The notes under the pieces are model-generated. The model was not told the DNA's origin and did not search any database. It saw nothing but the letters and a program-made list of their open reading frames with translations. From a virus (taxonomy: Duplodnaviria > Heunggongvirae > Uroviricota > Caudoviricetes), in the IMG/VR virus record IMGVR_UViG_2744054962_000001: a DNA stretch of 64,000 nucleotides. One strand, given 5' to 3'. Both the position numbers and the translations under genes were made by a program. Shown in pieces: positions 37,939-38,442 of the stretch (the stretch's first letter is position 1; each line of letters opens with the position of its first letter).

Positions 37939-38442
37939 TTAATCACAAGTCGTTTTGCCCGTGCCGTCTGGGTACACGATTGATTCGCACGACTTGCCAT
38001 TCAAGAAGCTGTAGCTGCGAATAGTACCGTCCGGATCGCGTTCTGTGTAAGACTCCAGCTTCTTCGGATCAGCGTTCTTACGGCGCACTTCTTTCAGCTC
38101 ATATTGGGCCTTGTACATCTCCTTGTAGGCTTCCTCTATGCGTTTCATTTTGATCTCCTTTGCCTCTTTGCTGCCCAGATAAGCGGCCATTTCAAGATCA
38201 CAGTTGAACCTGATTTTTGGGAATGAAGGCGCGTATCTACCCATGACTTTGGTTAAATCATTGTCGTTAGAGACATAATAGGCATGGCTTCCACACAATT
38301 TGTCGGCTCTGTCTTGGGCAATTGCTACGCTTGAAGTGGAGTAAATATCAACGTACCCGCCAGCTGACTTTTCATCTTGAGGTGGTTTTGGTACGCATCC
38401 GATCAGAGCAATGGCCATCGTCCCTATAATTACGCGTTTCAC
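37939..38442 (-). CDS. Lipoprotein, unknown function
   Basis: Signal peptide with lipobox LIGC; minus strand between + strand genes. Confidence 0.55.
   Translation of the reverse strand: MKRVIIGTMAIALIGCVPKPPQDEKSAGGYVDIYSTSSVAIAQDRADKLCGSHAYYVSNDNDLTKVMGRYAPSFPKIRFNCDLEMAAYLGSKEAKEIKMKRIEEAYKEMYKAQYELKEVRRKNADPKKLESYTERDPDGTIRSYSFLNGKSCESIVYPDGTGKTTCD

What the first reader, a model, noticed from the sequence alone, without database searches (positions are those of the whole stretch)
37939..38442. Orphan minus-strand lipoprotein between origin region and nuclease genes
A 167-aa lipoprotein (lipobox LIGC) is encoded against the prevailing strand. Phage-encoded lipoproteins in such positions commonly block receptor access or DNA entry of competing phages.
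Basis: inference. Interest (0 to 1): 0.45.

Follow-up and report, generated by a model that had tools for sequence, protein, structure and literature searches.

The report
Mobile outer-membrane lipoprotein gene cassette
The ORF is a real, self-contained gene cassette on an SSU5-type phage-plasmid. It encodes an outer-membrane lipoprotein of an uncharacterised family that also occurs in prophages, satellites and a conjugative plasmid, and its front half is sharply hypervariable, which suggests but does not prove a role in fending off competitors at the cell envelope.

Summary
Window 37939-38442 (-) is an intact 167-aa ORF with a GTG start, an AAGGAG ribosome-binding site, the lipobox LIGC and its own terminator. 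It is the orthologue of SSU5_072 and of the pHCM2 gene for WP_000832167, and dN/dS against SSU5 is 0.03.

The gene is a textbook moron. A cassette of about 600 bp is present or absent between genes that are adjacent in related phage-plasmids, and it has been exchanged independently of the backbone. Homologues sit in at least seven other accessory positions, including satellites, several prophage types and an IncFII plasmid.

On nearly identical backbones, codons ~8-90 drop to 30-68% nucleotide identity while the promoter and the 3' third stay at 94-100%.

SSU5 has a canonical Cor next to its tail fibres, this protein is unrelated to Cor, and the same allele accompanies different fibres.

Exclusion of foreign phages or plasmids at the envelope remains the best guess (about 0.35). 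A serum-resistance or fitness role like Bor/TraT is the main rival. Nothing here tests function.

The parts
37939..38442 (-). Lipoprotein CDS, 167 aa. Orthologue of SSU5_072 and of pHCM2 WP_000832167. Member of PHROG 18989.
   Evidence: dN/dS 0.03 against SSU5.
38395..38442 (-). Signal peptide with lipobox L13-I14-G15-C16. The +2 residue is Val, so there is no inner-membrane retention signal.
   Evidence: Sequence. Cys16 is conserved, and no family member has Asp at +2.
38173..38421 (-). Hypervariable patch, about codons 8-90. It is the mature N-terminal domain, including the Cys50-Cys81-bounded loop at residues 52-76 (38215-38289).
   Evidence: Nucleotide identity is 30-68% here and 94-100% on both sides, between near-identical backbones. 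Loop pN/pS is 0.52 against 0.07 in the C-terminal region. AF2 pLDDT is about 50 in the loop.
37939..38169 (-). Constant C-terminal module: a long helix (residues 92-123) and a four-stranded beta-meander (130-166), with Cys152 and Cys166 and two DPDG/PDG turns.
   Evidence: AF2 pLDDT is above 90. Codons 101-125 differ at 0-1 of 75 nt and codons 126-167 at 3-5 of 126 nt among the SSU5, Saintpaul and P0004 alleles.
38451..38456 (-). Shine-Dalgarno sequence AAGGAG, 8 nt before the GTG start.
38489..38494 (-). Perfect TATAAT hexamer, a candidate -10 element. There is no convincing -35. It lies inside the cassette-specific upstream DNA.
   Evidence: Sequence. It is identical in SSU5. The consensus scan did not call a promoter here, so it is unproven.
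37897..37932 (-). Intrinsic terminator of the cassette: an 11-bp stem, a 4-nt loop and a T-run.
   Evidence: It is absent from pF3221-2, which lacks the lipoprotein gene.
37908..38515 (.). Approximate extent of the inserted moron cassette: terminator, ORF, RBS and upstream region.
   Evidence: Alignment with phage-plasmids that have GNAT directly followed by sbcD and with phage Cyrano.
37467..37907 (+). Decayed GNAT acetyltransferase gene, the orthologue of SSU5_071. It carries a +1 G, a -1 A and a 54-bp deletion. It was acquired together with the lipoprotein cassette.
   Evidence: The identity spike of 90-96% over 37405-38550 stands against a backbone of 73-84%.

Best explanation
Shown:
- The locus is an autonomous moron cassette (upstream region with TATAAT, RBS, ORF, terminator) inserted between the GNAT gene and sbcD of an SSU5/pHCM2-type phage-plasmid.
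- The cassette is exchanged horizontally, independently of the backbone.

Shown from sequence rules:
- The product is a Sec/SPase II lipoprotein with no Asp at +2, so the Lol pathway should send it to the outer membrane.
- It has a short Pro/Lys-rich tether and four conserved cysteines. These fit two periplasmic disulfides, probably C50-C81 and C152-C166.
- No conserved catalytic residues are present, so it is a binding protein rather than an enzyme.
- It is modular. The constant C-terminal helix plus beta-meander is nearly invariant. The N-terminal domain has been replaced or diversified repeatedly on otherwise identical backbones.

Inferred:
- The protein is made from its own promoter while the element resides in the cell.
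- It acts at the envelope to protect the carrier cell, and so the element, against incoming competitors.
- The most likely mechanism is this: the constant module docks on a conserved envelope component, and the variable N-domain engages a variable foreign component, such as a phage tail-tip or ejection protein or a mating-pair protein. That blocks productive adsorption or DNA transit across the periplasm.
- It would be a heterologous exclusion factor, not a Cor/Llp-type plug for the element's own receptor.
For: - Cassette anatomy and presence/absence: the ASCH-sbcD interval occurs in five states.
- Horizontal exchange: 90-96% identity over the cassette against a 73-84% backbone.
- Selection: the lipoprotein gene stays intact under strong purifying selection while the co-acquired GNAT gene decays.
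- MGE-only distribution, in classic moron or exclusion positions:
  - next to int-alpA in satellites;
  - after holin-lysozyme-Rz, where lambda bor sits;
  - between tail genes K and I;
  - in a HicAB/Mnt/Arc/Ant cluster;
  - in a Mu-like phage;
  - in a prophage early operon;
  - on an IncFII plasmid.
- Sharply bounded hypervariable N-domain with a conserved promoter and C-terminus. This is the pattern expected of a specificity determinant in a conflict system.
- Outer-membrane sorting rule and conserved cysteines.
- No enzyme signature and no Pfam or NCBIfam family.
Against: - There are no functional data, and no homology to any characterised exclusion or defence protein. The two PADLOC matches were weak, partial and unrelated in kind (HamB helicase E 0.0036, Csx27 E 0.066). 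PHROG 18989 is annotated 'unknown function'.
- The promoter is not confirmed, and expression in the plasmid state is unknown.
- Hypervariability has other explanations: immune or predator pressure on a surface-exposed protein, or simply a tolerant loop. pN/pS in the loop is 0.52, not above 1.
- Bor, Iss and TraT show that lipoproteins borne on mobile elements can serve host fitness instead.
Confidence: 0.35

Rival explanations
1. It is a lysogenic-conversion fitness or virulence factor that benefits the host directly, as the outer-membrane lipoproteins Bor/Iss and TraT do. Possible roles are complement or serum resistance, envelope-stress tolerance or adhesion. The variable N-domain would reflect exposure to host immunity or predators.
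For: - Like bor/iss and traT, it is found both on prophages and on plasmids.
- One subfamily sits exactly where lambda bor sits, just downstream of the lysis cassette.
- It is carried by pHCM2 of S. Typhi and by many clinical Enterobacter, Citrobacter and Salmonella plasmids.
Against: - No similarity to Pfam Lambda_Bor or TraT at E <= 1.
- It is also present in environmental genera, Kluyvera and Buttiauxella.
- It is rare in E. coli: 3 of 5426 complete genomes.
- Surface exposure is unproven. By default an outer-membrane lipoprotein faces the periplasm.
Confidence: 0.25
2. It is a periplasmic or outer-membrane immunity or inhibitor protein against envelope-targeting weapons such as colicins, T6SS peptidoglycan or lipid effectors, or lysozymes. 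It would be carried as an orphan immunity gene.
For: - It is a small, disulfide-bonded, non-enzymatic periplasmic binder on mobile elements with allelic diversification. Orphan immunity genes show similar mosaicism.
- SSU5-like elements already carry an annotated LprI-type lysozyme inhibitor.
Against: - No similarity to the Pfam MliC, Ivy or PliI/G families or to any known immunity family.
- No fold match.
- No toxin or effector gene was seen nearby in any of the contexts examined.
Confidence: 0.12
3. This is the first reader's reading in its strict form: a Cor/Llp-like plug of the element's own receptor, which prevents superinfection by the same phage and loss of progeny on cell debris.
For: - It is an outer-membrane lipoprotein encoded by a phage.
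- One homologue lies in a tail operon next to the J gene.
Against: - SSU5 has a canonical Cor beside its tail-fibre genes.
- There is no homology to Cor beyond the signal peptide.
- The same allele occurs with different tail fibres.
- Most SSU5-like phage-plasmids lack the gene: 106 of about 433 carry it.
- Homologues occur in tail-less satellites and on a conjugative plasmid.
- SSU5 is described as specific for the LPS core.
Confidence: 0.08
4. It is a lysis (o-spanin) or virion-assembly component.
For: It is a lipoprotein, and one subfamily lies directly after an Rz-type i-spanin gene.
Against: - SSU5 already has an annotated Rz/Rz1 spanin set and is listed with a two-component spanin in PMC6139136.
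- The protein is three times the size of an o-spanin, is folded, and is not Pro-rich.
- It is absent from most related phages.
- An exported lipoprotein cannot take part in cytoplasmic assembly.
Confidence: 0.02

Closest known systems
Cor (phi80/N15/T1-type superinfection exclusion lipoprotein; SSU5_025 in phage SSU5)
   Same: Both are phage-encoded outer-membrane lipoproteins and accessory genes that act, or here are presumed to act, at the envelope.
   Different: - Cor precursors are about 77 aa and the gene sits beside the tail-fibre genes.
- This protein is 167 aa with two domains and two disulfides, and it lies beside ori and sbcCD.
- Only the signal peptide aligns.
- SSU5 carries both proteins.
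Llp of phage T5 (FhuA-blocking lipoprotein)
   Same: Both are outer-membrane inner-leaflet lipoproteins with disulfide-stabilised folds, encoded by a phage. Llp binds the periplasmic face of an outer-membrane protein, which is the mechanism proposed here for the constant module.
   Different: - Llp is small and is encoded next to the receptor-binding protein gene. Its specificity matches the phage's own receptor.
- Here the allele is uncoupled from the tail fibre.
- No sequence or fold similarity was detected.
Bor (lambda) / Iss (ColV plasmids)
   Same: All are small outer-membrane lipoprotein morons found both on prophages and on plasmids. The P0022 subfamily occupies the same post-lysis position as bor.
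   Different: - No hit to Pfam Lambda_Bor.
- This protein is larger and modular, and it has a hypervariable N-domain.
TraT (F-like plasmids: surface exclusion and serum resistance)
   Same: Both are outer-membrane lipoproteins of a mobile element. TraT excludes related elements, and a short variable region sets its specificity.
   Different: - TraT is about 244 aa, oligomeric and surface exposed, and it is encoded within the tra operon.
- No hit to Pfam TraT.
HK97 gp15 (moron in the tail operon; superinfection exclusion)
   Same: Both are morons inserted between conserved phage genes. The P0016 homologue lies between tail genes K and I.
   Different: gp15 is an inner-membrane protein, not a lipoprotein, and it is unrelated in sequence.

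Membership tests
Bacterial lipoprotein (SPase II substrate) | N-terminal positive n-region, an uncharged h-region, and a lipobox [LVI][ASTVI][GAS]C with the Cys at residues 15-35. | tested here: met
   The N-terminus is MKRVIIGTMAIALIGC. A regex scan of the whole window finds only this ORF, the SPFH lipoprotein and one weak third hit at 42868-43212. The Cys is conserved across the family. No dedicated predictor (LipoP or SignalP) was available.
Outer-membrane (Lol-sorted) lipoprotein | No Asp at +2, the inner-membrane retention signal in Enterobacteria. | tested here: met
   The +2 residue is V, A, S, T or Q in all 17 aligned homologues. Actual localisation cannot be tested here.
Moron (independently transcribed accessory gene in a phage genome) | Present or absent between genes that are adjacent in related genomes. 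| tested here: met
   - Cyrano: ASCH next to sbcD.
- Klebsiella p1 and pF3221-2: GNAT next to sbcD.
- SSU5 and pHCM2: GNAT, lipoprotein gene, sbcD.
- Cronobacter pH322_1: lipoprotein gene only.

Moron (independently transcribed accessory gene in a phage genome) | Own terminator and own promoter. | tested here: inconclusive
   The terminator is clear. Upstream there is only a perfect TATAAT without a -35, and the scan did not call it.
Moron (independently transcribed accessory gene in a phage genome) | Evolutionary history distinct from the flanking genes. | tested here: met
   The cassette is 90-96% identical to SSU5 against 73-84% for the backbone. Conversely, alleles diverge on backbones that are 94-100% identical. 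GC content is not distinctive in the window: 0.47 against 0.45-0.47.
Cor superinfection-exclusion family | Sequence similarity to Cor (PHROG 1119 or SSU5_025). | tested here: not met
   phrog_1119 scores E 0.22 over residues 1-25 only. hhalign of the family profile against SSU5 Cor aligns 20 columns, the signal peptide only, at probability 24%.
Cor / Llp-type receptor blockers | The gene is adjacent to the receptor-binding or tail-fibre gene, and its specificity co-varies with it. | tested here: not met
   - The gene lies between ori and sbcD.
- SSU5's Cor is by the tail fibres.
- The same allele occurs with different fibres in SSU5 and pAMPD01.
Cor / Llp-type receptor blockers | Blocks adsorption or DNA entry of the cognate phage. 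| not testable with these tools
   This needs adsorption and efficiency-of-plating assays.
Bor/Iss | Match to Pfam Lambda_Bor (PF06291). | tested here: not met
   No Pfam family at E <= 1.
TraT | Match to Pfam TraT (PF05818). | tested here: not met
   No Pfam family at E <= 1.
o-spanin (Rz1-like) | A small Pro-rich lipoprotein encoded within or next to an i-spanin gene in the lysis cassette. | tested here: not met
   - The protein is a folded 152-aa mature chain.
- It is not near the lysis genes.
- SSU5 has separate spanins, SSU5_028-030 (PMC6139136).
Known anti-phage defence systems (PADLOC) | Match to a PADLOC model. | tested here: not met
   Only weak partial hits to unrelated helicase and Cas-accessory models, E 0.004-0.07.

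The most novel reading that the evidence does not exclude
This would be the founding member of a new family of envelope-level exclusion or defence lipoproteins, shared as a promiscuous moron by phage-plasmids, integrated prophages, satellites and conjugative plasmids of Enterobacterales. A constant C-terminal module would dock on a conserved envelope component. A recombinationally swappable N-terminal domain would set which incoming phages or plasmids are excluded. That would be a modular, allele-specific 'immunity at the outer membrane' system, mechanistically distinct from Cor and Llp.
Probability: 0.3. Interest if true: 0.6.

Novelty: new variant of a known kind. Interest (0 to 1): 0.4.

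Why it matters
- SSU5/pHCM2-type phage-plasmids are common in clinical Salmonella (including S. Typhi), Enterobacter, Citrobacter and Klebsiella, and most of their accessory genes are uncharacterised.
- This cassette is one of the few that is clearly mobile on its own. It is under strong selection, and it is shared with satellites, prophages and a conjugative plasmid, so it probably confers a general benefit at the cell envelope.
- If it is an exclusion factor, it would affect the host range of therapeutic phages against these genera. It would also add a new protein family with a swappable specificity domain to the short list of envelope-level exclusion mechanisms.
- If it is a Bor/TraT-like fitness factor, it would be a new lysogenic-conversion trait of typhoid-associated plasmids.
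- Either way, the sharply bounded hypervariable patch gives an immediately testable handle through allele swaps.

Tried and rejected
- **Family searches.** Pfam and NCBIfam gave nothing. PHROG gave only an 'unknown function' family, and PADLOC gave only two weak unrelated hits.
- **PDB by sequence.** The profile search gave no meaningful hit; the best was E 1.2.
- **Fold searches.**
  - I made two AF2 models: pLDDT 76.7, then 84.5 with a deeper alignment.
  - Foldseek against BFVD gave nothing at E <= 1e-3.
  - The afdb50 library was unavailable.
- **Exhaustive profile search of 1.8 billion representatives.**
  - It returned only about 12 true relatives.
  - It also returned repeated hits in giant PKD/Ig-repeat proteins. 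Pfam shows these come from the short 'DPDGxIxSYxF/W' turn motif of K319L-like PKD domains. I treat that as motif-level resemblance, not homology.
- **Link to the GNAT gene.**
  - For a link: a 49%-identical GNAT lies 2.5 kb from the homologue on an IncFII plasmid.
  - Against a link: GNAT occurs without the lipoprotein gene in more than 200 plasmids. The lipoprotein gene occurs without GNAT in Cronobacter and in satellites. GNAT is a pseudogene in this window.
  - I rejected an obligate link.
- **Coupling of allele to tail fibre.** I tested this on three complete genomes and rejected it.
- **Other scans.**
  - Genome contigs found only close relatives.
  - Viral contigs failed with the broad alignment. 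With the narrow one it returned mostly SSU5-like contigs.
- **Literature.** Searches for the accessions and the PHROG id found nothing. The SSU5 receptor paper (PMC3911222) is not held.

Full report
**1. The observation**

The minus-strand ORF at 37939-38442 exists as described.
- It starts with GTG, the first possible start codon. AAGGAG lies 8 nt upstream.
- It is followed by a strong hairpin and T-run at 37932-37907.
- The N-terminus MKRVIIGTMAIALIGC carries K/R, an uncharged core and the lipobox LIGC.
- A pattern scan of the whole window finds only two other candidates: an SPFH-domain lipoprotein at 32019-32849 and one weak hit at 42868-43212.
- Most large ORFs in the window are on the plus strand.
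- Upstream lie a Rep3-type repA and two clusters of 21-bp iterons. Downstream lie sbcD and sbcC.

**2. What the window is**

- The region is 99.9% identical to E. coli plasmids of about 102-112 kb and 92.7% identical to Salmonella phage SSU5. The window is therefore part of an SSU5/pHCM2-type phage-plasmid.
- The ORF is the orthologue of SSU5_072 and of pHCM2 WP_000832167, both annotated 'hypothetical protein'.
- It matches PHROG 18989 (unknown function) end to end.
- Against the SSU5 copy there are 23 synonymous and 3 non-synonymous differences, dN/dS 0.03. This is a real gene under purifying selection.

**3. It is a self-contained, mobile moron cassette**

In related phage-plasmids the interval between the ASCH-like gene and sbcD occurs in five states.

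| State | Example |
|---|---|
| Empty | phage Cyrano |
| GNAT acetyltransferase only | Klebsiella p1; Citrobacter pF3221-2 |
| GNAT plus the lipoprotein gene | SSU5, pHCM2 |
| Decayed GNAT plus the lipoprotein gene | this window |
| Lipoprotein gene only | Cronobacter pH322_1 |

- Alignment with pF3221-2 shows that about 600 bp (roughly 37908-38515) is the indel. It comprises the terminator hairpin, the ORF, the RBS and about 70 bp of upstream DNA containing a perfect TATAAT at 38494-38489. No -35 is evident and the consensus scan did not call a promoter, so the promoter is not established.
- In PLSDB, 106 plasmids encode the protein. All are non-mobilizable and most are 100-120 kb. By comparison, 433 records share the flanking DNA.
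- Only 3 of 5426 complete E. coli genomes have the gene.

**4. Its history differs from the backbone, in both directions**

- The window-type plasmid pAMPD01 and SSU5 are 73-84% identical across the backbone. Identity rises to 90-96% over 37405-38550, which covers the GNAT remnant and the lipoprotein cassette. The pair was therefore acquired from an SSU5/pHCM2-like lineage.
- After acquisition, GNAT picked up two frameshifts and a 54-bp deletion. The lipoprotein gene stayed intact.
- Conversely, SSU5, the Salmonella Saintpaul plasmid pCFSAN000614 and a third Salmonella plasmid (P0004) have sbcD and ASCH proteins 98-99% identical (dS 0.03-0.10). Their lipoproteins are only 77-84% identical.

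**5. A sharply bounded hypervariable patch**

- Among those three backbones, nucleotide identity is 92-100% through sbcD, the intergenic region, the RBS and the ORF from about nt 270 onward. It falls to 30-68% between about nt 20 and 270 of the ORF.
- Counted by region, codons 101-125 differ at 0-1 of 75 nt and codons 126-167 at 3-5 of 126 nt. Codons 52-76 differ at more than half of their positions.
- Summed over six alleles, pN/pS is 0.52 in the loop at residues 52-76 and 0.07 in residues 124-167.
- The variable part is the mature N-terminal domain, and the worst of it is the loop bracketed by Cys50 and Cys81.
- This does not demonstrate positive selection, because the ratio is below 1 and synonymous sites are saturated. 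It is the pattern expected when a specificity-determining module is repeatedly replaced by recombination.

**6. The protein**

- The family is small. Two word-indexed searches and one exhaustive HMM search of 1.8 billion representatives found about 25 clusters. All those with a source name come from Enterobacterales.
- Members are lipoproteins of 151-188 aa. A 205-211 aa subfamily shares only the N-terminal domain.
- Cys16, Cys50, Cys81, Cys152 and Cys166 are conserved. No member has Asp at +2, so by the Lol sorting rule the family goes to the outer membrane.
- No conserved His/Ser/Asp/Glu constellation suggests catalysis.
- The AF2 model built on 24 sequences has pLDDT 84.5 and pTM 0.61. It shows:
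  - a short tether;
  - a beta-alpha-beta N-domain whose variable loop is poorly predicted;
  - a helix at residues 92-123;
  - a four-stranded beta-meander.
- The hits in giant PKD/Ig-repeat proteins reflect the short DPDG-turn motif only.

**7. Where the relatives live**

Every context examined is a mobile element, and the gene sits in accessory positions.

| Homologue | Context |
|---|---|
| P0007, P0008, L051 | Opposite strand, next to int-alpA, in ~6.5-kb primase-bearing satellite-like elements |
| P0009 | IncFII conjugative plasmid, between par and rep |
| P0013 | Mu-like phage |
| P0015 | Integrase-proximal prophage operon |
| P0022 | Directly after holin-lysozyme-Rz and before the terminase, the position of lambda bor |
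| P0041 (N-domain subfamily) | Cluster with HicAB, Mnt/Arc and antirepressor genes inside a tail region |
| P0016 | Between tail genes K and I |

In the satellite copy the gene is visibly AT-rich and is followed by an inverted repeat that could form its own terminator hairpin.

**8.

- The canonical receptor-blocking lipoproteins sit next to receptor-binding genes. SSU5 has exactly such a gene, an annotated Cor (SSU5_025), after its tail-fibre genes. It also has a separate spanin set (PMC6139136).
- The present family aligns to that Cor only over the signal peptide.
- pAMPD01 carries the same lipoprotein allele as SSU5 (99% aa). It has a different tail fibre and no cor.
- Tail-less satellites and a conjugative plasmid also carry the family.
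- SSU5 is described as specific for the LPS core and for rough strains (paper titles cited in PMC7969092).
- A Cor/Llp-type self-receptor plug is therefore unlikely, and membership in Cor, Llp, Bor, TraT or spanin families is rejected.

**9. Most likely function**

- The anatomy is secure: a mobile moron that encodes an outer-membrane-anchored, disulfide-bonded, non-enzymatic, modular binding protein with a swappable N-domain.
- The function is inferred. Three facts argue for a benefit at the envelope that does not depend on the element's own life cycle:
  - the family is found only on mobile elements;
  - it sits in positions where exclusion and lysogenic-conversion genes are typically found;
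  - it shows localised diversification.
- I rank the possibilities as follows:
  - exclusion of heterologous phages or plasmids, about 0.35;
  - a Bor/Iss/TraT-like host-fitness role, about 0.25;
  - immunity against envelope-targeting toxins, about 0.12;
  - a self-receptor plug, about 0.08;
  - lysis or assembly, about 0.02.
- None of these can be discriminated without experiments.

**10. Novelty and score**

- The kind of thing, a lipoprotein moron on a temperate phage, is well known.
- The protein family, its fold, its spread across different types of mobile element and its bounded hypervariable N-domain are not described in the literature I could search.
- I rate it a new variant of a known kind, with interest 0.4.

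Noticed in passing
window 37467-37907 (+): This is a GNAT acetyltransferase pseudogene, the orthologue of SSU5_071. 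It has a +1 G in a G-run, a -1 A in an A-run and a 54-bp deletion near the 3' end. The intact gene is widespread in SSU5-like phage-plasmids: 464 PLSDB records match, about 340 of them at 60% identity or more. A 49%-identical copy lies on an IncFII plasmid that also carries a lipoprotein homologue.
   Followed up: yes
L011 1-8577 (also L013, L051, L006): Satellite-like elements of about 6.5 kb (integrase, AlpA, lipoprotein gene, small genes, D5/DUF927-type primase) appear to be integrated inside the prohead protease-capsid gene of a lambda-like prophage. A 165-aa ClpP-type fragment abuts the integrase. It is 67% identical to the N-terminus of the full-length protease-capsid gene at the other end. 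The element seems to replace the 5' end of the helper's head gene.
   Followed up: partly
window 29383-31722 (+): The RecA/UvsX-like recombinase gene carries an intein with a LAGLIDADG homing endonuclease (Pfam Intein_splicing plus LAGLIDADG_3 inside RecA). The protein is 779 aa here and 358 aa in SSU5 (SSU5_060). This accounts for a ~1.3-kb gap in the pAMPD01-SSU5 alignment.
   Followed up: partly
window 32019-32849 (+): A second lipoprotein in the window is an SPFH/stomatin-domain protein with lipobox LTGC followed by Asp at +2. That predicts inner-membrane retention. It is conserved in SSU5 (SSU5_062) and Cyrano.
   Followed up: no
window 36092-36168 and 36439-36544: Two clusters of 21-bp iterons flank the region downstream of repA, and shorter repeats lie at 36594-36646. 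These iterons explain the repetitive 'YSG' pseudo-ORFs there.
   Followed up: partly
L031 26356-27463 (phage SSU5): SSU5 carries a small gene cluster between its tail-fibre adhesin and holin genes: an 'outer membrane protein', a 'membrane associated protein' and Cor. The cluster is absent from the window-type plasmid pAMPD01 and from the Saintpaul plasmid. The tail-fibre region is the main other variable block between near-identical SSU5-like backbones.
   Followed up: partly
window ~2048-2846 (-), by correspondence with pAMPD01 49702-50500: A GNAT-toxin / DUF1778-antitoxin pair (TacT/TacA-like type II toxin-antitoxin system) is annotated in the near-identical plasmid pAMPD01. I did not check it in the window sequence itself.
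   Followed up: no
L016 1-2324 and L017 224-1912: In the Cronobacter prophages that carry the 184-aa homologue, the slot upstream of the RusA/Q genes holds alternative cargo: a Y4jQ plus PNP_UDP_1 gene set in one, and an AAA_15/AAA_21 ATPase in the other. This looks like a defence-system hotspot.
   Followed up: no
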